Made by a program: the position numbers and the translations under genes. 63,435 bases of DNA from Patescibacteria group bacterium. Lineage in GTDB: Bacteria; Pseudomonadota; Alphaproteobacteria; Micavibrionales; UBA2020. Within the stretch, counting starts at the first letter, position 1, and the number at the start of each line of letters is the position of its first letter. This document shows positions 14,094 through 47,544 of the stretch, one piece after another. The notes below the pieces were generated by a model. That model worked only from the letters and a program-made list of their open reading frames with translations, made no database searches and had not been told where the DNA came from. Location of the stretch: assembly GCA_035626855.1 (NCBI GenBank), contig DASPMW010000106.1:1-63435 (forward strand). The letters are read 5' to 3'.

Positions 14094-14135
14094 GGCTCGT
14101 GGGAAAATTTTCCACATAGTTTTCAATAACTTAGC

Positions 14136-14161
14136 GGAACTTATGTTCCTGATCAGGCGTT
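14136..14161 (+). promoter_or_regulatory. EcfG (general stress sigma) promoter GGAAC-N17-CGTT
   Basis: Exact motif upstream of the single-domain response regulator. Confidence 0.75.
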
Positions 14162-14199
14162 TTCATTGGGAACAGGGGTAAGTTTTGGGCTTTTTGAAC

Positions 14200-14589
14200 A
14201 TGTTACAACCGCCGACATGTAACGCCTCCGCGCAGAAGACCATCCTGCTCGTCGAGGACGATGATGATCTGCGCGACATGATGCGCAACATTCTAGAAAC
14301 AGCGGGATTCCACGTTATCGAGGCGACGACGGCAGACAGCGTCATCGCCGTCTTAAGCGCGCCGCACGATGTGGCTCTTGTCTTTACCGATGTCGCCCTG
14401 CCCGGCCAGGCCGACGGCTTTACCCTCGCCCGCATGGTGCGGGAGGCAATGCCGGATGTACCGGTCCTTGTGACCTCCGGCAAAGTGCCGCGCAACCAGG
14501 TGCCGGACGGGGTCACTTTCATCCCCAAGCCCTATATCCTCGCCAAGGTCCTCCAGAACATCCAGGAAGCCCTGCATACGGCCTGTTAG
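14200..14589 (+). CDS. Single-domain response regulator receiver
   Basis: ILLVEDD, LVFTDVALPG, VLVTSG, FIPKPY. Confidence 0.9.
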   Translation: MLQPPTCNASAQKTILLVEDDDDLRDMMRNILETAGFHVIEATTADSVIAVLSAPHDVALVFTDVALPGQADGFTLARMVREAMPDVPVLVTSGKVPRNQVPDGVTFIPKPYILAKVLQNIQEALHTAC

Positions 14590-14591
14590 GC

Positions 14592-15698
14592 TTATTGTGG
14601 CCGCGGCGCTTCCTGCGCGTCCCGGTCGGCAGGCACCTCCATCTCACGCGTCACAACGGTTTCGCTCGTGCTGCGCGTATGGGCGAGGAATTGCGGGTAA
14701 TTGTCGCGGATAAAGACGATCATGTTTTCGCGCAGGTATTGCTGCAGGTCGGAATTCGCGCCCGAATTGTCGGCGCTTGCCAGCAGCCGGATCTGCATGG
14801 CCTTGTCGTTGGTGTCGGTCACCGCGACCGTCTTGACCTTGCCGTTCCAGAGCGGCGTCGCCTTCAGCAGGCGGTCCAGTTCGGCGCGGATCGGCTCGAG
14901 CGGCATCATGTAGTCGACCCACAGGAACACCTGCGTCAACAGGTCCTGCGTCTGGCGGCTCCAGTTCTGGAAGGGCTTTTCGACGAAGTAGTTGATCGGC
15001 AGAATCAGGCGGCGCAGGTCCCAGGTTTTGGCGACGACGTAAGTAAGATTGATTTCCTCGATGGTCGCGAAATCGTTCTCGACGATGATGGAATCGCCGA
15101 TGCGGATCGGCTGCGTGACCGCGATCTGCAGGCCCGTGAAGAAATTCCCCATCGTCTTCTGGGCGGCAAGGCCAAGCACGACGCCCGCAAGACCCGCCGA
15201 AGCAAGCAAGCTGGTGCCGAGCGCGCGCACGGCGTCGAAGGTCATCAGCGCGGCGGAAATGCCGACAATCGTGATCACGGCGATGGCAAGGCGCTTGAGC
15301 ACCCGCACCTGGGTAATGACCATCCGCGCCTCGAGCGTCGTCTGGTCGACGGCGCGGCGGCGGCGCAGCACAACATACGATAGCAGGTTGACGCCGCGAA
15401 TCGCCGCCCAGGCCGCCAGCCAGATAAAGCACATGGTCGAGACGCTGCGCACAACATCTTCATCGAGCCAGTCAAAATCAAAGAATTTGGTCAGCGCCAC
15501 AAGGCAGCCGAGCGCCACCAGCAAAATCGCCGGCGTCTTCAGTTCCGTATAGATGCGGCGGCCGAATTTGGCGTAGCTGAGATCCTTGTGCAGGAGGCGG
15601 TGGCGGATAACGGCAAGCGCCCCCATCAGCGCGAGCCCGGCCAGGGCGACGAGCGCGACTTTCATGAGCTGAGAGGTTTCCGGCATATCCCACTGCAT
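14592..15698 (-). CDS. MscS-family mechanosensitive channel
   Basis: LLASAGLAGVVLGLAAQ, NFFTGLQI, PIRIGD; start placed at MQWD (15698). Confidence 0.9.
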   Translation of the reverse strand: MQWDMPETSQLMKVALVALAGLALMGALAVIRHRLLHKDLSYAKFGRRIYTELKTPAILLVALGCLVALTKFFDFDWLDEDVVRSVSTMCFIWLAAWAAIRGVNLLSYVVLRRRRAVDQTTLEARMVITQVRVLKRLAIAVITIVGISAALMTFDAVRALGTSLLASAGLAGVVLGLAAQKTMGNFFTGLQIAVTQPIRIGDSIIVENDFATIEEINLTYVVAKTWDLRRLILPINYFVEKPFQNWSRQTQDLLTQVFLWVDYMMPLEPIRAELDRLLKATPLWNGKVKTVAVTDTNDKAMQIRLLASADNSGANSDLQQYLRENMIVFIRDNYPQFLAHTRSTSETVVTREMEVPADRDAQEAPRPQ

Positions 15699-15731
15699 AG
15701 CGATTTTCCTTTGCTGATTCACTCGAACGAA

Positions 15732-15756
15732 AATGCGTGGGAAGCGGGCAGGTTCC
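15732..15756 (-). promoter_or_regulatory. EcfG-type promoter GGAAC-N16-CATT (mscS)
   Basis: Minus-strand motif 34 nt upstream of the mscS ATG. Confidence 0.6.
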
Positions 15757-15792
15757 CTGGCACTTCTACATTGGGGCGGTTTATTAACCGCC

Positions 15793-15817
15793 GGAACCCC
15801 TGCAGGACCTTCGCGTT
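15793..15817 (+). promoter_or_regulatory. EcfG promoter GGAAC-N16-CGTT (yciF-like gene)
   Basis: Exact motif. Confidence 0.8.
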
Positions 15818-15859
15818 GGCGGGGCAGTTCACCCACCCTCAAAACAAAAGGAACCAGTC

Positions 15860-16366
15860 ATGAACGTCAAATCATTCGAAGATCTCTTCATCATGGAACT
15901 CAGCGATGTGTACAGCGCCGAGAAACAGCTGACCAAAGCACTCAAAAAAATGTCGAAAGCGGCCTCGGACGAGATGCTTGCGGAAGCCTTCATGATGCAC
16001 CTCGAGGAAACCGAGGGCCAGGTGGCGCGCATCGAGGAGCTTGCGAAGAAGGAAGGCCTCACGCTGAAACGCATCAAGTGCGAGGCGATGGAAGGCCTGA
16101 TCGCCGAGGGCCAGGAAGCGATCGACGAGGTCGAGGAAGGCCCCCTGCTCGACGTCGCGCTCATCATGGCCGCGCAGAAGGTCGAGCACTACGAAATCGC
16201 CGCCTACGGCTCGCTCGTCGAACTTTCCAAGCTGCTCGGCTATGCCGATGCGGAGGAACTGCTGAACGAGACGCTGGAGGAAGAAAAAGCAACCGACGTC
16301 AAGCTGACCGAAATCGCGGTCGGCAGCGTCAACGAACAAGCCGAGGCCATGCGCGCCGAGGCATAA
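15860..16366 (+). CDS. Ferritin-like DUF892 (YciE/YciF family) stress protein
   Basis: ELSDVYSAEKQL, HLEET, CEAMEGL, AAQKVEHYEIAAYG, LEEEKATD. Confidence 0.92.
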   Translation: MNVKSFEDLFIMELSDVYSAEKQLTKALKKMSKAASDEMLAEAFMMHLEETEGQVARIEELAKKEGLTLKRIKCEAMEGLIAEGQEAIDEVEEGPLLDVALIMAAQKVEHYEIAAYGSLVELSKLLGYADAEELLNETLEEEKATDVKLTEIAVGSVNEQAEAMRAEA

Positions 16367-16387
16367 TCCGGCTTTTGCCAGAAAGAA

Positions 16388-16422
16388 CATCGCCGGAACC
16401 CACGGTTCCGGCGGTGCTTTTT
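16388..16422 (+). terminator. Rho-independent terminator after the DUF892 gene
   Basis: catcgccggaacc-cac-ggttccggcggtg followed by ctttttc. Confidence 0.7.
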
Positions 16423-16424
16423 CA

Positions 16425-16449
16425 GGAACTTGCCCGCGACCACCGCGTT
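16425..16449 (+). promoter_or_regulatory. EcfG promoter GGAAC-N16-CGTT (DUF3606 gene)
   Basis: Exact motif. Confidence 0.8.
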
Positions 16450-16479
16450 GACCTACTGACAACCACACCGGAGGCTAAA

Positions 16480-16650
16480 ATGACAGATGACAAAAATCTC
16501 AAAGGCCAGGACCGCAAGCGCATCAGCCTGCAGGAGGACTACGAAGTCCGCTACTGGACCAAGGAACTTGGCGTGAGCGAAGAAGAGCTTCGCCAGCTAG
16601 TCGCGAAAGTCGGCAACTCGACCGACGCCGTCCGCCAATCGCTACGATAA
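16480..16650 (+). CDS. DUF3606 family small protein (56 aa)
   Basis: MTDDKNLKGQDRKRISLQEDYEVRYWTKELGVSEEELRQLVAKVGNS; GGAGG RBS. Not listed separately in the ORF track. Confidence 0.88.
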   Translation: MTDDKNLKGQDRKRISLQEDYEVRYWTKELGVSEEELRQLVAKVGNSTDAVRQSLR

Positions 16651-16661
16651 TTAATGCGTCG

Positions 16662-16696
16662 AAAAGGGGCCCCTGGTATTCGGGGGCCTCTTTTTT
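16662..16696 (+). terminator. Rho-independent terminator (possibly bidirectional)
   Basis: aaaaggggcccc-tggtattc-gggggcctctttttt. Confidence 0.7.
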
Positions 16697-16716
16697 CGTG
16701 AAGACGGAAAAGCCCC

Positions 16717-17670
16717 ATGAAAAAGAACCAGAAGACCCATCACACCAAGCCCGCGCCCGGCATAAAAAAAATCCCGAAACGCGGGACGCCGCGCGGCAAC
16801 ATCATTGTGATCGGCGGGCATGAGGATAAAGAGCAGGACAAAATCATCCTCGAGGAAATCGCAAAGCGCGCGGGCCGGGGCAAACTCATCGTCTCGACCA
16901 TGGCGAGCGAGGTCCCCGACCAGCAGTGGGAAGATTATCGCAAGGTGTTTCGCGAACTCGGCGTGAAGCGCGTGGAGCGCCTGGACATCCGCCAGCGCGA
17001 GGACATCATGGAAGACCCACGCACGGAAATCTTCGACGGCGCCAACGTCATGTTCTTCGCAGGGGGCGACCAGCTGAAAATCACCTCCAAAATCGGCGGC
17101 ACGCCGCTCTGCACCGCGATGCGCAAGATGTATCATGAAGGCGGCACCATCGCCGGCACCTCGTCGGGCGCCTCCGTCATGGGGGAAACGATGCTGATCG
17201 CGGGGCCGGGCGCCACCTCGCCCGAGCGCGAAACATCAGGGCGCATGGCGCCCGGGCTCGGTTTCCTGTCCGACGTCCTGATCGACCAGCATTTTGCCGA
17301 GCGCGGGCGCATCGGACGCCTGATGGGCGCAGTCGCGCTCAATCCGAGGGTGCTGGGCCTCGGCATCGACGAAGACACGGCGCTGATATTCGCCCGCGAT
17401 TTCTTTACCGTCGTCGGCAACGGCTCCGTCTACGTCATCGACGGCCGCGGCATGAAGCATTCCGGTTTCGCGCAGGATGAAGAGCAGGAAAAAATCTCGA
17501 TTTACGGCCTGAAACTGCACTTGCTTACGCAATCCGACAGGTTTCTGTTGAAAGACCGCCGCCCGGTGCCTGTCGGCCGCGACAATGTGGAAGCCGAGCT
17601 CAAGAGGCTCCGTCCCAAGCCGCGCGCCGCCCGCAAATCCTCCCCCACCAAAAAAAGGAAAAGCAAATGA
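16717..17670 (+). CDS. cphB: Cyanophycinase (peptidase S51)
   Basis: IIVIGGHEDK, FAGGDQ, AGTSSGA (Ser nucleophile), IDQHFAERGRIGRL, GIDEDT. Confidence 0.9.
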   Translation: MKKNQKTHHTKPAPGIKKIPKRGTPRGNIIVIGGHEDKEQDKIILEEIAKRAGRGKLIVSTMASEVPDQQWEDYRKVFRELGVKRVERLDIRQREDIMEDPRTEIFDGANVMFFAGGDQLKITSKIGGTPLCTAMRKMYHEGGTIAGTSSGASVMGETMLIAGPGATSPERETSGRMAPGLGFLSDVLIDQHFAERGRIGRLMGAVALNPRVLGLGIDEDTALIFARDFFTVVGNGSVYVIDGRGMKHSGFAQDEEQEKISIYGLKLHLLTQSDRFLLKDRRPVPVGRDNVEAELKRLRPKPRAARKSSPTKKRKSK

Positions 17671-17897
17671 CCAACAATAACCCGACGAACATGGAGTCCG
17701 GCAAGAACGCAGGACAGGAAACCGGCATCGAGAAAAACCAGCAAAAGAAATCCGCCCAATCGAACGGCGAGATCGAAAACAATGTCGAGAACGATCCCGG
17801 CGCGCAGAACTCCGGCGGCGATGAATCCATCAAAGGCATGGGCATGCGTAAATCATCGCAGACCGGCGTGAACAAGAGCAGCGATCATCCGGCCTGA
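17667..17897 (+). CDS. Small hydrophilic, probably disordered protein (76 aa)
   Basis: ATGA overlap with the cphB stop; rich in N/G/E/Q/S/K. Confidence 0.65.
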   Translation: MTNNNPTNMESGKNAGQETGIEKNQQKKSAQSNGEIENNVENDPGAQNSGGDESIKGMGMRKSSQTGVNKSSDHPA

Positions 17898-17927
17898 AGA
17901 TAGGTTGCGGCCGCGACGCCAGTCCTC

Positions 17928-18018
17928 GTCAAACCCGCAGAAGCGGGATCGACGGTGCTGACCCTAAGACCGCATTGCATGTTATAGGCTGTTGGATCCC
18001 CGCCTTCGCGGGGATGAC
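17928..18018. repeat. REP-like palindromic element (GTCAAACCCGCAGAAGCGGGATC...GGATCCCCGCCTTCGCGGGGATGAC)
   Basis: Two inverted CCCGC-NNNN-GCGGG hairpins with GTC/GAC ends, between convergent genes. Confidence 0.75.
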
Positions 18019-18048
18019 GGAATGACGAGGCCGGAAGCAGTCGCCCCG

Positions 18049-18945
18049 CTACGTCATCGAGGCCTTCCCGTCGCCATCGGTACGGCGCTCTTCCCTGCCC
18101 GTCTCTTCGCTTTTCTTGAGAAATACGGCAGGCTCGTCCATGTCGTCGGTCTGGTAGGCCACGGCGAAATGGGGACTGTTATGCGCCCAAGCCGGGTTTC
18201 CGTCGGAATCGAGTACGATGCCGCCCGCCTCGCCGTCGATACGCTCCAGTCGCTGCAGCGCGTAATCGATGGCATGCTGCACGGGCATCTGCTCCAGCCG
18301 GTGCATGACTTCAGCCGCCAGCATGGTGCGCGCGATATCCTCGCCCTCGCCCGACATGCACACGCCGCCCATCTTGTTATCGGCATAAAAACCGCACCCG
18401 GGCAGGGCTGAATCCCCGACGCGCCCCGGCGCGGCTTCTTCCAGCCCGCCTGTCGAAACGCCGGAAACGATATTGCCGTTCACATCGCGCGCGACGCAGC
18501 CGACGGTGTCGTGATTGCCGTCATTGCTCTCGCCCTGCGAAACCGCCGGCTCCATCTTTTTCTGTTTTGCGAAGGCTGTCGCATCCTCCCCGACCAGCAG
18601 GATGGGATCGTCGTTGAAGACCGCCTGCGCCACCTTGATGGGGTTCTTCACATCCATGATCGCCGCGACCGCGCCGATATTGAGCGTATCGCCGTCCATG
18701 ATCGAGGCATCCGTCTGCACCGAGCCGTCCTTGCGCTTCACGGCGCCCGCCCCGGCATTGAAGGTCGTATCATCCTCCAGCGCGCAGACGGCGGCCACCA
18801 CCGCGTCAAAGGCCGACCCGCCCGTGCGCAGGATGGCAGCCCCTGCCTCCAGCGCCGCCGCGACCCCCTTGCGGTTGTCTTCCTCTTCCTCCGGCTTGAT
18901 TTCCTTCGCGCCGCCGTGAACGATGATCGACCAATGCGATGTCAT
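18049..18945 (-). CDS. iaaA: Isoaspartyl peptidase / L-asparaginase (Ntn hydrolase, IaaA-like)
   Basis: IIVHGGA, LEDDTTFNAG, HD|TVGCVARD (Thr nucleophile), STGG, GRVGDS. Confidence 0.9.
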   Translation of the reverse strand: MTSHWSIIVHGGAKEIKPEEEEDNRKGVAAALEAGAAILRTGGSAFDAVVAAVCALEDDTTFNAGAGAVKRKDGSVQTDASIMDGDTLNIGAVAAIMDVKNPIKVAQAVFNDDPILLVGEDATAFAKQKKMEPAVSQGESNDGNHDTVGCVARDVNGNIVSGVSTGGLEEAAPGRVGDSALPGCGFYADNKMGGVCMSGEGEDIARTMLAAEVMHRLEQMPVQHAIDYALQRLERIDGEAGGIVLDSDGNPAWAHNSPHFAVAYQTDDMDEPAVFLKKSEETGREERRTDGDGKASMT

Positions 18946-18993
18946 GGGTTACTCCTGTTCCGCCGGATAACACCGGGCTGTTCCGATAGCGTC

Positions 18994-19018
18994 AATGCGC
19001 TGCCGGGCCACAAGTTCC
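18994..19018 (-). promoter_or_regulatory. EcfG-type promoter GGAAC-N16-CATT (iaaA)
   Basis: Minus-strand motif 49 nt upstream of the iaaA ATG. Confidence 0.6.
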
Positions 19019-19042
19019 AAGGCGGGGGATTGATATAAAAGA

Positions 19043-19606
19043 CTATTCGCCGACAGTCTTGCTGTGCAGGGAGCACAGATGCGCCATCGAATCCTGCGGA
19101 TCCTGCGTGAATCCCGATTTCGGGTAGGCGCAGAACAGCGGCAGGTTTTCGCGGCGGCAAAGTTCGGTCCACAGGTGCTCGAGGCGCACCGTGGCCGCGC
19201 ACTGCCCCTGCGCCCACATCAGCGCGACCATCTCGCCAAAGGCGCGTACCTTGCGGCCCTTGGCCCCTGCACGGCGCAGCGTATCGGTCACAACGGTCTG
19301 AAACTTCTCTTCATCCGGCCAGTCGTTGACCATGAATTTGCCAATGGTTTCCTGCGCATCCAGCAGCACAAGCTGCTCGTTGTCGATGTAGAAGGACAGG
19401 TCGAGGTTTTGCGCCGTCAGGCGGCGCTCCAGCTCATGCTGGTGCGCGAGGGTTACGATCGCAATGACCCCCTCCCCCTTTACGAGACCGTCATGCACGA
19501 AACTGGAAAGGGTGTCGAGGAAGGCGCTTTCCTTCTCGTAAACCTGGACAAAATGCTCAAAAGCCGACATTTCGCCCCAGAAGGCGGTATATGGACGCTC
19601 GATCAT
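19043..19606 (-). CDS. Stand-alone MEDS domain protein
   Basis: HFVQVYE, LLDAQETI, VRAFGEMVALMW, VRLEHLW, LFCAYP match the MEDS pattern. Confidence 0.85.
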   Translation of the reverse strand: MIERPYTAFWGEMSAFEHFVQVYEKESAFLDTLSSFVHDGLVKGEGVIAIVTLAHQHELERRLTAQNLDLSFYIDNEQLVLLDAQETIGKFMVNDWPDEEKFQTVVTDTLRRAGAKGRKVRAFGEMVALMWAQGQCAATVRLEHLWTELCRRENLPLFCAYPKSGFTQDPQDSMAHLCSLHSKTVGE

Positions 19607-19661
19607 GTGTTCTGCTCCCGTAGGTTAACATAACACGATGTGTCACGTCTTAATGCTTGCA

Positions 19662-19686
19662 AACGCCTACCACATTATCCGGTTCC
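19662..19686 (-). promoter_or_regulatory. EcfG promoter GGAAC-N16-CGTT (MEDS gene)
   Basis: Exact motif on the minus strand. Confidence 0.75.
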
Positions 19687-19740
19687 CGGATTTCCCTTAT
19701 TCGGCGAAATATCGCCGGTTCACCCGGTTATGAACCGGCG

Positions 19741-20049
19741 CTAAACAGTCGTGATTTTCTGGCACAGGATGAGGATCTTCTTCTGCCCGAAACCGGCTTC
19801 CAGTTCGCGCCGGTAGCCCTGCCACCATTTTTTGTTCAGCCGCTTTACCATCACTTCAAAAATGACAATCTGGTCGCGCTCGAGTTTTTTTCCGGCGGGC
19901 TTCCACAATCCTTCTGCGGGCGCGCGCGTAAAGGCGGTCAGCCCGCCAAAGCGGCGGGTGAGCAGGTCCTTCGTCTCGCCAAATTTGGTTTTAGCGATGC
20001 GCCGGCCGGCGCTGTCGCGCAAGGGAAGAAATATCTGGACCAGGTACAC
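19741..20049 (-). CDS. Conserved hypothetical protein (102 aa)
   Basis: MYLVQIFLPLRD...RFGGLTAFTRAPAEGLW...IVIFEVM...WWQGYRRELEAGFGQ; co-oriented with the upstream heme-binding gene. Confidence 0.7.
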   Translation of the reverse strand: MYLVQIFLPLRDSAGRRIAKTKFGETKDLLTRRFGGLTAFTRAPAEGLWKPAGKKLERDQIVIFEVMVKRLNKKWWQGYRRELEAGFGQKKILILCQKITTV

Positions 20050-20078
20050 TTTGCAGGCCTCGTTAAGGAAGACCGGTG

Positions 20079-20846
20079 CTACTGCGGCTTCACCGCCGGC
20101 AGCTTTTGCACAGGCGACAATTTAGCGGCGAGGTCATGCTCGCGTCCGCCGCAGGCGGGATGGCCAAAGCCGCCCGCGCTTTTGCCGTCCGTAATGTCGA
20201 AGATGATGGCATCGCTGCCGTTCGCGGCCACGCCCTTCGGCACGAAATCGAGCTTCAGCGCGTTGCGCGCGCGCCAGGCGATGTTGTGGTCGGCGCAGGA
20301 GGTGTCGCCCGACACGCCGAGGCCGCCGACGATCTCGCCCTTTTCATTGTAAAGGGCAAGGCCGCCACCGAAAACGTTCACGCCGCCGATTTTCTCGCCG
20401 ACCAGCGCGTCGCTGTTGGAGCCGTATTGGGGCGCGTCGCCCGCATAGGCCGCCGTGACGTTCACAGGGTTGCTTTCCTGCAGCCCGAACAGGGGCCCGC
20501 CCGGCTGCGTCGCCGAATAAAGATTGGCGGTCGAGAGCGACAGGCCCTTGAGGCTGAAGGCATTCGCGGTATTCGCCTTCTGCGCCGAAATGACACGGCT
20601 GCCCGGCCACTGCGCATCGACCGCATCGCCGGTATAGGCAACCGCGCAGACGGTGCCAGCGCGATCAACGACGGTGCCCCACATATCGAGGTTCAGCCCG
20701 CCATTATCCTCCTTGCGCGCCTGGCTCAGCGCCGCTTTCAACGCCTCATGATCCGGCAGCGCTGCGCAGTTATCGGCGGCAGCAGCAGGAGATGCAAAAA
20801 GGGCGAGCATAAAGGCGGCAGAAACAAGGCGGGTCGCGTTCGTCAT
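20079..20846 (-). CDS. Secreted GlcG/HbpS-like heme-binding protein
   Basis: Signal peptide; SRVISAQKANTANAFS, LSTANL, GGGLALY, VGGLGVSGDTSCADH. Confidence 0.75.
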   Translation of the reverse strand: MTNATRLVSAAFMLALFASPAAAADNCAALPDHEALKAALSQARKEDNGGLNLDMWGTVVDRAGTVCAVAYTGDAVDAQWPGSRVISAQKANTANAFSLKGLSLSTANLYSATQPGGPLFGLQESNPVNVTAAYAGDAPQYGSNSDALVGEKIGGVNVFGGGLALYNEKGEIVGGLGVSGDTSCADHNIAWRARNALKLDFVPKGVAANGSDAIIFDITDGKSAGGFGHPACGGREHDLAAKLSPVQKLPAVKPQ

Positions 20847-20965
20847 GATTTTTCCTTGGAATCGTGGAGGGAGGAAGAGTTGATGCGCAGCGAACAGCCT
20901 AACGCTGTACGCGGTGATTGAACAGCCTCTCTGTTCGCTCATCCGATGGAATTGGGGGGATGTGG

Positions 20966-21484
20966 TTAGAGCAGCCGCTCCGCCTCTTCGGCATCCGGCA
21001 ATTTACCGGCGGGCGTCAGGCTGTCGATGGCATCGGGCAGCGTCTGGCTCAGGCCTTCCAGCAGCTCGGCGCGGCTCTTGCCGGTCTGCACCATCAGCCA
21101 TTCGATGCGCGATTCTCCGAGCGCGCGTTCGAGCTCGCGCGTGGAGATTTCCTTGTTTTCGCCCGTGCCGATCCAGCTTTGCACGCGGTCTGCATAGGGA
21201 GTTTGCTGGAAGCGCGCGACGAGGTCGGCGAGCCCTTCGGCCAGTGCGCCGCCCGACAATGCATGCCGCACCGGCACCTGGATCGCGCGCGAGGACGGTT
21301 CGCGGAAGCCGTCCGCGCCGCCGATACCCGTCATGTCGGCGAGCCGGCCCTTGCCCTTCATCGTGCGATAGGCGAGCAGCGCGAGGAGCGCCTTGGTGCT
21401 GAACGACATACCGCCGCCCGCACCGCGCATCATGCCCGGCTGGAAACCGCCGCGACCACCTACCATGCCATCGAGAAAACCCAT
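20966..21484 (-). CDS. YidB/DUF937 family protein
   Basis: LADLVARFQ...VQSWIGTGENKEIS...LSQTLPDAIDSLTPAGKLP; AGGAG RBS at MGFLDG. Confidence 0.85.
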   Translation of the reverse strand: MGFLDGMVGGRGGFQPGMMRGAGGGMSFSTKALLALLAYRTMKGKGRLADMTGIGGADGFREPSSRAIQVPVRHALSGGALAEGLADLVARFQQTPYADRVQSWIGTGENKEISTRELERALGESRIEWLMVQTGKSRAELLEGLSQTLPDAIDSLTPAGKLPDAEEAERLL

Positions 21485-21532
21485 TTTCCGCTCCTGAAAT
21501 TCACACCCTTTAAGCACCCGGGATTATGTACG

Positions 21533-21557
21533 AACGACAGAAAAACCGTCTTGTTCC
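21533..21557 (-). promoter_or_regulatory. EcfG promoter GGAAC-N16-CGTT (yidB-like gene)
   Basis: Exact motif on the minus strand. Confidence 0.78.
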
Positions 21558-21691
21558 TGTATTGCCTGTCTGGGCGGCATTTGCACAGGAGCCAGCCGCG
21601 ATTTGCGCACAGCGTCTTTTTTAAATACTGAAACATTTCAATGACTTAAAAACAGAGCGTTGCAGGTTTTTCGGTCCCCGGTTTCGTTGTA

Positions 21692-21704
21692 TATCAATGA
21701 CTTG
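21692..21704. promoter_or_regulatory. IHF-consensus site TATCAATGACTTG (related copies at 21636-21648 and 14121-14133)
   Basis: Matches WATCAANNNNTTR exactly; the other two copies have one mismatch. Confidence 0.5.
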
Positions 21705-21855: not shown

Positions 21856-22683
21856 ATGAAAAATTTTCCCGGCACCCTCGCCGGTCTCGTTGAAAAAGCA
21901 AAAGCGGCCACCGCCAGCGAAAGCGCCGCGCTCACAACGCTTCATTCGCTCGACCTCACCAGCCTGAACGACACCGACACCCCCGCCGTGATCGACACGC
22001 TCATCGCAAAAGCGGATCAGGGAAAACTCGGCCATGTCGCGGCGACTTGCGTCTATCCGCAGTTCCTCACGCAAACCTTTAATGCCACTGCGAAAAAGGG
22101 CATCGCGCGCGCGACTGTCATCAATTTTCCAAGCGGCCATGGCACGCCCGACCAGACGGCGGCAGACACGAGAACAGCAATAAAATCAGGCGCAAATGAA
22201 ATCGACATCGTGCTCGATCATGAGGCGTTTCTATCGGGCAATAGCGAAAAAGCCGCGCAGTTGCTGCGTTCCTGCCGCGACGCCTGCGGCCCCGACGTAA
22301 AGCTCAAAGTGATTTTAGAAAGCAGCGCCTTCACCGATTACAAGGATCTCTACGCCGCCTCCGTCCTCGCGCTCGACGCAGGCGCCGATTTTTTAAAGAC
22401 ATCGACCGGCAAGCACGCCACCGGTGGCGCCTCGCTCGACGCCGTCGCCACCATGCTCCAATCGATCAGGGACACCGGTTTCGATGCCGGCGTAAAGGTC
22501 TCGGGCGGCGTTAAAACCGTGACGGACGGCGCGCAATACATCGCCCTCACCGAAAGCATGATGGGCGGCGACTGGATCCGCCCTGAAAAATTCCGCATCG
22601 GCGCAAGCGGTGTGCTGACCGATATCCTGAAAACGCTGGGACAGAGTGCAGGCCCTCCGCCCGCCATGCCGCCGGTTTATTAG
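21856..22683 (+). CDS. deoC: Deoxyribose-phosphate aldolase
   Basis: LDLTSL, ATVINFP, GANEIDIV, DFLKTSTGK, GVKVSGGV, RIGASG. Confidence 0.95.
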   Translation: MKNFPGTLAGLVEKAKAATASESAALTTLHSLDLTSLNDTDTPAVIDTLIAKADQGKLGHVAATCVYPQFLTQTFNATAKKGIARATVINFPSGHGTPDQTAADTRTAIKSGANEIDIVLDHEAFLSGNSEKAAQLLRSCRDACGPDVKLKVILESSAFTDYKDLYAASVLALDAGADFLKTSTGKHATGGASLDAVATMLQSIRDTGFDAGVKVSGGVKTVTDGAQYIALTESMMGGDWIRPEKFRIGASGVLTDILKTLGQSAGPPPAMPPVY

Positions 22684-22758
22684 CCGCCTAACTCCCTGAT
22701 TTTGCGTTGTCAATGAATATTTGTATCGTTTTTGTTCTGTTTTGTTCTTGAAAGAACA

Positions 22759-24126: not shown

Positions 24127-24480
24127 TCAGTCGCTGCCGGACTTGTCGCTGCCGCCATGGTCGTCATCATGGTCGCCTTTATGGTGATCATCATCGTGAT
24201 CGCCGGATTTGCCATGGTTATGGTCGTCGTGCTTGGCCTTCATATCTTTATGGGCCGCTTTCATTTCTTCCAGCGTGACAGAGCCATCGCCGTTGGCATC
24301 CGCTTCCTTGAACATCTTGTTGCCGAAAGCGTCATGTTCGCCCTGGGTCAGCTTGCCGTCGCCGTCTTTGTCCATTTTCTTGAACCAGGCGTCGGTTTTG
24401 CCGTCCATATGCTTGTCGCAGGCCAGCGCGGGCTGCGCCGCCATCAAAACCGCTAGCGCGGCGAGAGCGAAGTATTTCAT
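24127..24480 (-). CDS. Secreted EF-hand protein with His/Asp-rich tail
   Basis: Signal peptide; DKDGDGKLTQGE and DANGDGSVTLEE loops; HDDHNH...DHDDDHH tail; GGAGA RBS before ATG 24480. Confidence 0.85.
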   Translation of the reverse strand: MKYFALAALAVLMAAQPALACDKHMDGKTDAWFKKMDKDGDGKLTQGEHDAFGNKMFKEADANGDGSVTLEEMKAAHKDMKAKHDDHNHGKSGDHDDDHHKGDHDDDHGGSDKSGSD

Positions 24481-24520: not shown

Positions 24521-24545
24521 AACGCCCCCACGCGCCAAGCGTTCC
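24521..24545 (-). promoter_or_regulatory. EcfG promoter GGAAC-N16-CGTT (EF-hand gene)
   Basis: Exact motif 41 nt upstream of the ATG. Confidence 0.75.
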
Positions 24546-47481: not shown

Positions 47482-47544
47482 GGCCTCTCTCCCTTTTGCT
47501 AGGTGTACCGGCAACCTACGCGAAAGGAAGGAAATCGTTCCAAA

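What the first reader, a model, noticed from the sequence alone, without database searches (positions are those of the whole stretch)
14121..21704. Compact general-stress (EcfG) regulon island: seven matching promoters in about 7.5 kb
Seen in the sequence: GGAAC-N16/17-CGTT at 14136, 15793, 16425 (+) and 19686, 21557 (-), plus GGAAC-N16-CATT at 15756 and 19018 (-). Each lies 30-60 nt upstream of a gene start (receiver, DUF892, DUF3606, MEDS, YidB, MscS, isoaspartyl peptidase). Established: this is the alphaproteobacterial sigma-EcfG/SigT consensus, and DUF892, DUF3606 and MscS are typical desiccation or osmotic stress genes. Inference: a physically clustered regulon forming an accessory module between cckA and recA that brings unusual members (MEDS, IaaA, probably cyanophycinase and a heme-binding protein) into the stress response. 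No sigma factor, PhyR or NepR is encoded in the island.
Basis: partly seen in the sequence, partly recalled or inferred. Interest (0 to 1): 0.7.

Follow-up and report, generated by a model that had tools for sequence, protein, structure and literature searches.

The report
Stress-sigma promoter cluster, no PhyR/NepR
Seven to eight real promoters for a general-stress sigma factor are packed into about 10 kb that only this species has inserted between cckA and recA; such clusters are ordinary, but this bacterial order appears to run the stress response without its usual PhyR/NepR switch and places cyanophycin breakdown genes under it.

Summary
All seven motifs are at the stated coordinates. Each is intergenic, correctly oriented and ends 31-56 nt before a start codon. 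An eighth sits before an EF-hand gene just past recA.

Genome-wide, 49 of 74 GGAAC-N16/17-CGTT matches lie in the 10.5% of the genome that is non-coding. Only spacers of 16 and 17 show this. About 100 promoter-like sites exist, in front of classic general-stress genes (CsbD, DUF1328, Ku, LigD, DUF892, trehalose genes). The island is the densest cluster: 7 sites in 7.6 kb, against at most 5 in 5000 random assignments.

The block is accessory. Relatives keep cckA...recA but lack these genes there.

The genome has three EcfG-like sigma genes (38% identical to the PDB 5uxx sigma). It has no PhyR and no NepR, and neither do 40 relatives of the same order. A conserved 54-87 aa anti-sigma-like protein is linked to the sigma gene and carries the same promoter. 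It is the likely replacement for NepR.

IaaA and the S51 peptidase co-occur with cyanophycin synthetase, so they act in cyanophycin breakdown.

The island is an ordinary member of a known regulon type; the regulatory wiring behind it is the unusual part.

The parts
14136..14161 (+). promoter GGAAC-N17-CGTT for the receiver gene
   Evidence: intergenic; 39 nt before the ATG at 14200
14200..14589 (+). single-domain response-regulator receiver (129 aa; alternative TTG start at 14185)
   Evidence: Pfam Response_reg, 1.5e-14
15732..15756 (-). promoter GGAAC-N16-CATT for mscS
   Evidence: 34 nt before the ATG at 15698; the CATT class is 17/42 intergenic genome-wide
14592..15698 (-). MscS-type mechanosensitive channel (368 aa)
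   Evidence: Pfam MS_channel_2nd, 5.6e-13
15793..15817 (+). promoter GGAAC-N16-CGTT for the DUF892 gene
   Evidence: 43 nt before the ATG
15860..16366 (+). DUF892 (YciE/YciF ferritin-like) protein, 168 aa
   Evidence: Pfam DUF892, 4.4e-52; paralogue C137 also has a GGAAC-N17-TGTT promoter
16388..16416 (+). intrinsic terminator after the DUF892 gene
   Evidence: 13-bp stem with 9 GC pairs, followed by a T-run
16425..16449 (+). promoter GGAAC-N16-CGTT for the DUF3606 gene
   Evidence: 31 nt before the ATG at 16480
16480..16650 (+). DUF3606 small protein (56 aa)
   Evidence: Pfam DUF3606, 4.1e-23
16662..16694 (+). terminator-like hairpin plus T-run between the DUF3606 and S51 genes
   Evidence: fold gives -30.9 kcal/mol, z-score -2.8
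16717..17670 (+). S51 peptidase, cyanophycinase-like (317 aa); no promoter of its own was recognised
   Evidence: Pfam Peptidase_S51, 3.4e-15; forms an operon with iaaA in G005 and with cphA-iaaA in G038
17667..17897 (+). 76-aa hydrophilic, low-complexity protein; start overlaps the S51 stop
   Evidence: no Pfam match
18049..18945 (-). isoaspartyl dipeptidase / asparaginase-2 family protein (IaaA-like, 298 aa)
   Evidence: Pfam Asparaginase_2, 3.9e-74
18994..19018 (-). promoter GGAAC-N16-CATT for iaaA
   Evidence: 49 nt before the ATG; the G005 orthologue has GGAAC-N17-GGTT upstream
19043..19606 (-). stand-alone MEDS-domain protein (187 aa)
   Evidence: Pfam MEDS, 3.9e-22; absent from all 40 relatives
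19662..19686 (-). promoter GGAAC-N16-CGTT for the MEDS gene
   Evidence: 56 nt before the ATG
19741..20049 (-). 102-aa ORF of unknown family, 30 nt downstream of the HbpS-like gene
   Evidence: my gene caller; no Pfam match; not found at this locus in relatives
20079..20846 (-). HbpS-like (GlcG/DUF336) secreted protein; conserved in the genus at this locus, not island-specific
   Evidence: Pfam HbpS-like, 3.2e-13; 72-80% identical copies in L018-L020 and L029; upstream region differs from relatives
20966..21484 (-). YidB-like protein (172 aa)
   Evidence: Pfam YidB, 3.8e-24; absent at this locus in relatives
21533..21557 (-). promoter GGAAC-N16-CGTT for yidB (possibly also the HbpS-like gene and orf102 by read-through)
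   Evidence: no terminator found in the 119-nt yidB-hbpS gap
24127..24480 (-). secreted EF-hand calcium-binding protein (117 aa), beyond recA
   Evidence: Pfam EF-hand_1/5/7
   Evidence: 41 nt before the ATG

Best explanation
The stretch 14.1-21.6 kb, plus one more site at 24.5 kb, is a dense cluster of independent promoter-gene cassettes. They are read by an EcfG-like ECF sigma factor, the general-stress sigma type of Alphaproteobacteria.

When that sigma is active, RNA polymerase would start 5-8 nt after each xGTT/CATT element and co-induce:
- a single-domain receiver
- an MscS channel
- a DUF892 ferritin-like protein
- DUF3606
- an isoaspartyl dipeptidase
- a MEDS-domain protein
- YidB (perhaps with the HbpS-like gene and orf102)
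- an EF-hand protein.

The S51 cyanophycinase-orf76 pair belongs functionally with iaaA (cyanophycin breakdown). In this genome it is only reachable by terminator read-through or by an unrecognised promoter.

The cluster is accessory. It fills a variable interval between cckA and recA that holds other genes in relatives. It has native base composition and no mobility genes. It therefore looks like lineage-own regulon cassettes reshuffled into a variable spot, not a foreign element.

The sigma is encoded elsewhere in three copies: C128:60888-61448, C102 joined to C40, and C79:18596-19126. The genome and its whole order lack PhyR and NepR. Control is inferred to run in two ways. First, two-component regulators may act on the sigma genes, which are preceded by TGT(C/T)ACA repeats. 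Second, a conserved 54-87 aa anti-sigma-domain protein lies beside the sigma gene and is itself transcribed from a GGAAC-N17-TGTT promoter, giving negative feedback.

Shown: motif positions, enrichment, spacer specificity, gene identities, accessory status, absence of PhyR/NepR by model searches, and the synteny and promoter of the small protein. Inferred: which sigma reads the sites, the inducing signals, operon extents and the anti-sigma function.
For: - Motifs and distances.
- Intergenic enrichment 49/74, specific to spacers 16/17, with -10 variant controls. Statistics.
- Regulon content typical of EcfG regulons: CsbD, DUF1328, Ku, ATP-dependent ligase, GSP26-like, DUF892, DUF4142 (list). 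This matches the S. melonis EcfG regulon, which includes Ku, MscS, trehalose genes and GSP26 (PMC6599016), and the R. etli motif (PMC3892343).
- EcfG-like sigmas: the best PDB hit is 5uxx_A at 97 and 87 bits. In the reciprocal search C128 scores 95 bits, C79 84, and the other five complete ECF sigmas (the split C102/C40 copy aside) 47 or less. Pfam PhyR_sigma2 also hits them at 35 bits.
- One sigma copy (C102) lies downstream of GGAAC-N17-CGTT.
- Accessory status: MEDS 0/40 relatives and IaaA 3/40. cckA-recA synteny is kept without these genes or motifs in 13 relatives.
- Regulon membership is conserved elsewhere: G005 has DUF3606-DUF892-[GGAAC-N17-GGTT]-iaaA-S51 and a second DUF892 with a promoter.
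- No PhyR or NepR: with the Caulobacter control positive.
- Small anti-sigma-like family: found in 24/41 genomes; 16/20 copies have the promoter; 2.2-3.9 kb from the sigma gene on the same strand in 12 or more genomes; 8/18 members hit Pfam zf-HC2; the model is a three-helix bundle whose best PDB fold matches are ChrR, RskA and RsiW.
Against:
- The assignment of the motif to the EcfG-like sigmas rather than to one of the five other ECF sigmas is circumstantial.
- The sigma is only 38% identical to the PDB 5uxx sigma, and scores only about 12 bits higher against it than against M. tuberculosis SigH.
- Two of the seven island promoters use CATT. By the intergenic excess, roughly a quarter of intergenic CATT matches could be chance.
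- The fold matches of the small protein have non-significant E-values of 3-10, and its PDB profile search found no anti-sigma chain.
- The assembly is fragmented (214 contigs, 97.8% complete), so the absence of PhyR in this genome alone would be weak. It rests mainly on the relatives, including a closed genome.
- Counts of the strict motif in relatives outside the genus are low and do not track sigma presence cleanly.
Confidence: 0.78

Rival explanations
1. This is a canonical general stress response. The promoters are read by an orthodox EcfG held by NepR and released by phospho-PhyR, and those genes were simply missed (assembly gap, or copies too divergent for the models).
For: The promoter consensus and regulon content cannot be told apart from canonical EcfG regulons. 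The assembly has 214 contigs and one sigma copy is split across a contig break.
Against: PhyR_sigma2 finds only sigma-sized frames in this genome and in 40 relatives, including a single-contig genome, while the Caulobacter control is positive. None of 62 receiver-containing ORFs has a sigma-like part. The NepR model finds 0 of 41 genomes, again with a positive control.
Confidence: 0.06
2. The motif is read by another ECF sigma of this genome (C10, C73, C83, C88 or C144). GGAAC / CGT-type elements are common to many ECF groups, so the EcfG-like sigmas may do something else.
For: AAC in the -35 element and CGT in the -10 element are shared by many ECF families (general knowledge). None of the EcfG-like sigma genes has a clean GGAAC-N16/17-CGTT directly upstream. 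Instead they carry TGT(C/T)ACA repeats.
Against: The regulon content is that of EcfG regulons. The small anti-sigma-like gene and a DUF1328 gene next to the C128 sigma carry the motif, as does the paralogous response regulator on the C79 sigma's contig, about 7.5 kb from that gene. The C102 sigma copy lies downstream of a strict site. The small protein's promoter and its linkage to the EcfG-like sigma are conserved across families.
Confidence: 0.1
3. The block is a horizontally acquired mobile genomic island that brought its own promoters from another alphaproteobacterium.
For: The genes are absent from the same interval in all relatives examined. MEDS is absent from 40 relatives, and its nearest relative found in the genome-contig scan is only 48% identical, in an unrelated MAG.
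Against: GC content is flat at about 0.60, equal to the genome mean. There is no tRNA, no integrase or transposase among the ORFs, and there are no flanking repeats. Several cargo families have paralogues or orthologues with the same promoter type elsewhere in this genome and in G005.
Confidence: 0.1
4. The motif matches are chance occurrences in GC-rich intergenic DNA.
For: One of 100 window shuffles reached 6 strict matches.
Against: Spacer specificity, -10 specificity, orientation and distance to start codons, the genome-wide intergenic excess (P about 1e-30) and the clustering permutation test all argue against chance.
Confidence: 0.01

Closest known systems
EcfG (ECF15) general-stress regulons of Alphaproteobacteria: S. 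melonis Fr1 EcfG, R. etli EcfG1/RpoE4, S. meliloti RpoE2, C. crescentus SigT
   Same: The promoter architecture GGAAC-N16/17-(C)GTT is the same. So are the short leaders, the regulon size of roughly 50-100 units, and the content: Ku, ligase, CsbD, DUF1328, DUF892, MscS, trehalose genes, GSP26, single-domain receivers and histidine kinases.
   Different: No PhyR or NepR was found in the genome or in the order. The sigma is only 38% identical to the PDB 5uxx sigma, which I recall as B. quintana EcfG. The sigma genes are flanked by an OmpR-type regulator and hybrid kinases. They are preceded by TGT(C/T)ACA repeats rather than by their own promoter type.
Non-canonical extra EcfG copies (for example R. 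etli EcfG2, Caulobacter SigU)
   Same: These are EcfG-type sigma genes with no adjacent nepR or phyR, present in several copies per genome (PMC3892343; here).
   Different: In those organisms a canonical PhyR-NepR-EcfG1 core still exists and sits above the extra copies. Here no such core was found at all.
ECF sigma with a class I anti-sigma domain partner (R. sphaeroides SigE-ChrR, M. tuberculosis SigK-RskA, B. subtilis SigW-RsiW)
   Same: The conserved 54-87 aa protein is linked to the sigma gene. It gives weak Pfam zf-HC2 hits, and its three-helix model best matches these anti-sigma domains. It is transcribed from the sigma's own promoter type.
   Different: It has no zinc ligands, no transmembrane segment and no sensor domain. 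It is usually not co-transcribed with the sigma gene but lies 2-4 kb away behind a kinase gene. Binding to the sigma has not been tested.
Cyanophycin gene clusters cphA-cphE/cphB-iaaA
   Same: S51 cyanophycinase and isoaspartyl dipeptidase occur together, and only in genomes that have cphA (3 of 3 with a strong IaaA match). The three genes are contiguous in G038.
   Different: Here the three genes are split between two stress-promoter clusters (window island and C132). iaaA has an EcfG-type promoter. I found no paper linking cyanophycin genes to the general stress response.

Membership tests
EcfG-type (ECF15) promoter / general stress regulon | -35 GGAAC and -10 (C)GTT elements separated by 16-17 nt | tested here: met
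   only spacers 16 and 17 are enriched in intergenic DNA. The -10 preference is CGTT > GGTT, TGTT > CATT.
EcfG-type (ECF15) promoter / general stress regulon | Sites lie upstream of, and point towards, genes at promoter distance | tested here: met
   43 of 49 intergenic strict sites have a same-strand start codon within 200 nt. Island distances are 31-56 nt.
EcfG-type (ECF15) promoter / general stress regulon | Target genes are the usual stress set (CsbD, Ku, DUF892, DUF1328, trehalose genes, MscS and so on) | tested here: met
   Pfam on a sample, the full list and comparison with PMC6599016.
EcfG-type (ECF15) promoter / general stress regulon | The genome encodes an EcfG-group sigma factor | tested here: inconclusive
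   Three copies give a reciprocal best match to PDB 5uxx_A (95 and 84 bits, against 47 or less for the other complete ECF sigmas), but at only 36-38% identity. No curated ECF15 model was available, and NCBIfam gave only generic sub-threshold hits. The identity of 5uxx as B. quintana EcfG is from memory.
PhyR-NepR-EcfG partner switch | PhyR: a response regulator with an N-terminal sigma-like domain | tested here: not met
   only sigma-sized frames match PhyR_sigma2 in 41 genomes, and no receiver ORF has a sigma-like part. The Caulobacter control is positive.
PhyR-NepR-EcfG partner switch | NepR: a small anti-sigma factor, usually co-transcribed with ecfG | tested here: not met
   Pfam NepR finds 0 of 41 genomes with a positive Caulobacter control. 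The small linked protein resembles zf-HC2 anti-sigma domains instead.
PhyR-NepR-EcfG partner switch | Transcription of the targets depends on the sigma and starts just after the -10 element | not testable with these tools
Horizontally acquired genomic island | Absent from the same locus in close relatives | tested here: met
   cckA...recA is conserved, but the receiver, MscS, DUF892, DUF3606, S51, IaaA, MEDS and YidB genes are not found there.
Horizontally acquired genomic island | Deviant composition, a tRNA or repeat boundary, and mobility genes | tested here: not met
   GC is flat, there is no tRNA, there are no flanking repeats, and no integrase or transposase appears among the annotated ORFs.
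Cyanophycin catabolism (CphE-type cyanophycinase plus isoaspartyl dipeptidase) | S51 and Asparaginase_2 genes are linked and co-occur with cyanophycin synthetase | tested here: met
   cphA scores 1142 bits against TIGR02068 at C132. cphA is in G000, G005, G038 and G015. IaaA-S51 is in G000, G005 and G038, and is contiguous with cphA in G038.

The most novel reading that the evidence does not exclude
A whole order of Alphaproteobacteria (said in an earlier, unverified note to be related to Micavibrio) has lost, or never had, the PhyR-NepR partner switch. It still keeps an EcfG-like sigma and, in this genus, a general-stress regulon of about 100 promoters. Control would instead run through a minimal soluble anti-sigma-domain protein (54-87 aa, transcribed from the sigma's own promoter type, syntenic with the sigma gene) and through two-component regulators acting on the sigma genes. 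In this lineage the regulon has also recruited the cyanophycin cycle (cphA in one promoter cluster, iaaA and the cyanophycinase in this island) and a stand-alone MEDS sensor.
Probability: 0.5. Interest if true: 0.7.

Novelty: new variant of a known kind. Interest (0 to 1): 0.5.

Why it matters
The island itself is a clear but ordinary example of how general-stress genes travel as self-contained promoter-gene cassettes and accumulate in variable chromosomal spots.

Two points give the finding value beyond that.

1. It gives a clean, statistically well-controlled regulon for a lineage in which the textbook PhyR-NepR switch is absent. PMC3892343 describes that switch as a conserved feature of the alphaproteobacterial general stress response. 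If the small anti-sigma-domain protein and the two-component genes really control the sigma, this is an alternative wiring of a much-studied stress response. It could be tested with a handful of reporter and binding assays.

2. It links cyanophycin turnover and isoaspartyl-peptide hydrolysis to a general stress sigma, which I could not find reported.

Tried and rejected
- PhyR candidates: the two 250-260 aa ORFs with weak Sigma70_r4_2 hits (C120, C147) are LuxR-type autoinducer regulators, not PhyR.
- C144 sigma: a strict motif 354 nt upstream drives a DUF1328 gene, not the sigma.
- orf60 upstream of the C102 sigma copy was considered as a NepR. It has no Pfam match and no NepR-like motif.
- NCBIfam gave no specific name for the sigmas.
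- A literature search for '5UXX' found nothing relevant, so the identity of that PDB entry rests on memory.
- A PDB profile search with the small-protein alignment gave only a spurious repeat hit.
- Strict motif counts in relatives, set against the tool's reversed-pattern control, did not separate genomes with and without the sigma cleanly. I therefore make no claim about regulon size outside the genus.
- No EcfG-type promoter was found for S51 or for the HbpS-like gene.
- Flanking repeats, tRNA and GC shift as island boundaries: none found.

Full report
**Observation**

- GGAAC-N16/17-CGTT is at 14136(+), 15793(+), 16425(+), 19686(-) and 21557(-).
- GGAAC-N16-CATT is at 15756(-) and 19018(-).
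- A further strict site at 24545(-) lies just past recA.

Pfam confirms all the gene calls: receiver, MscS, DUF892, DUF3606, S51 peptidase, Asparaginase_2 (IaaA-like), MEDS, HbpS-like, YidB, then DeoC, RecA and an EF-hand protein. Each motif is intergenic and points at its gene. Each ends 31-56 nt before a start codon with a visible ribosome-binding site.

**Is it more than chance?**

I laid the whole assembly (2.92 Mb, 214 contigs, GC 0.60) in the Python box. I made a crude codon-bias gene call: 2847 genes, 89.5% coding.

- There are 74 strict matches genome-wide, so 0.19 are expected in 7.6 kb and 5 are seen.
- 49 of the 74 lie in the 10.5% of DNA that is intergenic. Of those, 43 have a same-strand gene start within 200 nt. 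The binomial P is about 3e-30.
- The best control is the spacer. Intergenic/total is 26/42 for N16 and 23/32 for N17, but 0-3 of 13-21 for N13-15 and N18-20.
- The -10 element tolerates CGTT (49/74), GGTT (18/33), TGTT (25/48), CATT (17/42), AGTT and CGTA. It does not tolerate CGTC (2/77) or CGTG (1/51).
- With this relaxed motif there are about 101 promoter-like sites.
- The island has 7 in 7.6 kb and is the densest cluster in the genome. Random assignment of 101 promoters to genes never gave more than 5 in 5000 trials.
- Smaller clusters exist on contigs C132 and C128.

**What the regulon is**

The genes behind these sites include CsbD, DUF1328, Ku, an ATP-dependent DNA ligase, a GSP26-like pyridoxamine-oxidase-fold protein, a second DUF892 copy (a third lies in the C132 cluster without a recognised promoter) and DUF4142. 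They also include trehalose and glycogen enzymes, several EF-hand and OmpA-like proteins, single-domain receivers, hybrid kinases and an OmpR-type regulator.

This is the content published for EcfG regulons. In S. melonis Fr1 the motif is GGAAC-N17-20-GTT, and Ku, MscS channels, trehalose genes and GSP26 are EcfG-dependent (PMC6599016). In R. etli the EcfG1 motif is GGAAC-N16-CGTT (PMC3892343).

**Anatomy of the island**

- DUF892 is followed by a strong terminator (16388-16416). The DUF3606 promoter starts 9 nt later, so these are separate units.
- DUF3606 is followed by a 14-bp hairpin with a T-run (16662-16694; -30.9 kcal/mol), only 20 nt before the S51 start codon. I found no EcfG-type promoter for S51. 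Its stop overlaps the start of a 76-aa hydrophilic ORF.
- iaaA and the MEDS gene each have their own promoter on the minus strand.
- yidB has a strict promoter. The HbpS-like gene follows after 119 nt with no recognised terminator, then a 102-aa ORF.

**Accessory status**

- MEDS has no homologue in 40 relatives (14 of the same genus).
- IaaA is found in three of the 40 relatives.
- In 13 relatives the region next to recA was fetched. cckA and recA are neighbours in ten of them.
- Four same-genus genomes have cckA-CheY-like-...-HbpS-like-...-DeoC-RecA. None of the 13 has the receiver, MscS, DUF892, DUF3606, S51, IaaA, MEDS or YidB genes there, and they carry almost no motif matches.
- The HbpS-like gene is therefore ancestral at this locus. 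In relatives it has a conserved upstream region of its own. Here that region is replaced by yidB and its promoter.
- GC content is flat at about 0.60. There is no tRNA, mobility gene or flanking repeat.
- A same-genus genome, G005, carries at a different place a block DUF3606-DUF892-[GGAAC-N17-GGTT]-iaaA-S51 and a second DUF892 with GGAAC-N16-CATT. That block is mixed with orthologues of genes that in this genome lie in the C132, C137 and C119 stress clusters.

So the same cassettes, each with its own promoter, are reshuffled between variable regions within the genus.

**Regulators**

The finding's own refutation test was whether the genome has an EcfG-type sigma.

*Sigma factors*
- Nine ECF sigma genes ring Sigma70_r4_2.
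- Three of them form a distinct group. C128:60888-61448 is the first. A copy 87% identical to it is split between the end of C102 and the start of the reverse complement of C40. C79:18596-19126 is 63% identical.
- Their best PDB match is 5uxx_A (97 and 87 bits). From memory this is the B. quintana EcfG-NepR complex.
- In the reciprocal search they score 95 and 84 bits, against 47 or less for the other complete ECF sigmas. Identity is only 36-38%.

*PhyR*
- The PhyR_sigma2 model hits only these sigma-sized frames, in this genome and in 40 relatives. One relative is a single-contig genome. The Caulobacter control is positive.
- None of 62 receiver-containing ORFs has any sigma-like part.

*NepR*
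- The NepR model finds nothing in 41 genomes, again with a positive control.

*What is there instead*
- The C128 sigma is flanked by a divergent OmpR-type regulator and a convergent hybrid kinase.
- 2.7 kb further on there is a DUF1328 gene and an 81-aa ORF, each with a GGAAC promoter.
- That 81-aa protein defines a family of 54-87 aa proteins found in 24 of 41 genomes.
- 16 of 20 copies have GGAAC-N16/17-xGTT within 110 nt upstream.
- In at least 12 genomes from four families it lies 2.2-3.9 kb from the sigma gene on the same strand. In G013 it lies directly downstream.
- 8 of 18 members give weak hits to Pfam zf-HC2, the anti-sigma N-terminal domain.
- The AlphaFold model (pLDDT 81.5) is a three-helix bundle. 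Its top PDB fold matches are the anti-sigma domains of ChrR, RskA and RsiW. The E-values are non-significant, as expected for so small a domain.
- The sigma genes themselves are preceded by repeated TGT(C/T)ACA half-sites rather than by GGAAC...CGTT, here and in relatives.
- A paralogue of the OmpR-type regulator (56% identical) is itself a regulon member.

I infer transcriptional control of the sigma genes by two-component systems, plus post-translational control by the small anti-sigma-like protein. Neither has been tested.

**Cyanophycin**

- The genome has a true cyanophycin synthetase (TIGR02068, 1142 bits, cut-off 850) at C132:17935-20772. It lies inside the other large stress-promoter cluster. 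It sits downstream of a strict promoter at 15932 and carries a GGAAC-N17-TATT variant 40 nt before its start.
- Among 40 relatives, cphA occurs in G005, G038 and G015.
- IaaA-S51 occurs in G005 and G038, and in G038 the three genes are contiguous.

So the S51 and IaaA genes of the island are the breakdown half of a cyanophycin cycle, not a scavenging route without a synthetase. In G005 they are co-transcribed from an EcfG-type promoter. A library search found no paper connecting cyanophycin genes or MEDS with the general stress response.

**Verdict**

It is right on the promoter type, the regulon and the accessory nature of the block. It needs correction on three points:
- the regulatory system is not the canonical PhyR-NepR-EcfG switch;
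- the HbpS-like gene is not island cargo;
- S51 is not obviously driven from an island promoter.

Clusters of this kind are common: earlier notes of this scan list 93 similar findings in at least 79 genomes. The island alone is therefore a new member of a known kind. What lifts it is the clade-wide absence of PhyR and NepR together with a conserved candidate replacement, and the recruitment of cyanophycin turnover.

Noticed in passing
G000 contig C128:59961-64408 (outside the window): The sigma locus reads: OmpR-type regulator (-), EcfG-like sigma (+), hybrid histidine kinase (-), DUF1328 (-), then an 81-aa anti-sigma-domain-like protein (+). The last two each have GGAAC promoters. The small protein and its linkage to the sigma gene are conserved across four families of the order.
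   Followed up: partly
G000 contigs C102 (end) and C40 (end): A second sigma copy, 87% identical to the C128 one, is split by an assembly break inside the repeated gene. The two contig ends overlap. It lies 418 nt downstream of a strict GGAAC-N17-CGTT site, after a 59-aa proline-rich ORF with no family match.
   Followed up: partly
upstream of the three sigma genes (C128:60720-60885, C79:18470-18595, C102:3010-3130) and loci L032-L035: Conserved repeated TGT(C/T)ACA half-sites and a CTATCCT(T/G)A block precede the EcfG-like sigma genes, where an autoregulatory GGAAC...CGTT promoter would be expected. These are likely response-regulator binding sites.
   Followed up: no
G000 contig C132:2300-22900: A second general-stress cluster holds eight or more GGAAC promoters in about 14 kb. 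Its genes include LigD, a trehalose-synthase-like glucosidase, DUF72, cyanophycin synthetase (17935-20772), a third DUF892 and a Zn-dependent alcohol dehydrogenase.
   Followed up: partly
window 14125-14161: The -35 region of the receiver promoter is a palindrome (GGAACTTATGTTCC). It therefore also gives a GGAAC-N16-TATT match on the minus strand, pointing at no gene. This is probably meaningless.
   Followed up: no
window 47517-47541 (-): A GGAAC-N16-CGTA site lies 36 nt before a 52-aa hydrophilic ORF (47481-47323). It is another likely regulon member in the window, outside the island.
   Followed up: no
window 15777-15802 and 22673-22698: A 26-nt direct repeat (81% identical) links the DUF892 promoter region with the 3' end of deoC. 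It could be chance or a scar of rearrangement.
   Followed up: no
loci L018-L020, L029 (relatives), upstream of the HbpS-like gene: A conserved TGGCATG-N..-CAACGAAAAAA element precedes the HbpS-like gene in genus relatives and is missing in this genome. Its promoter type is undetermined.
   Followed up: no
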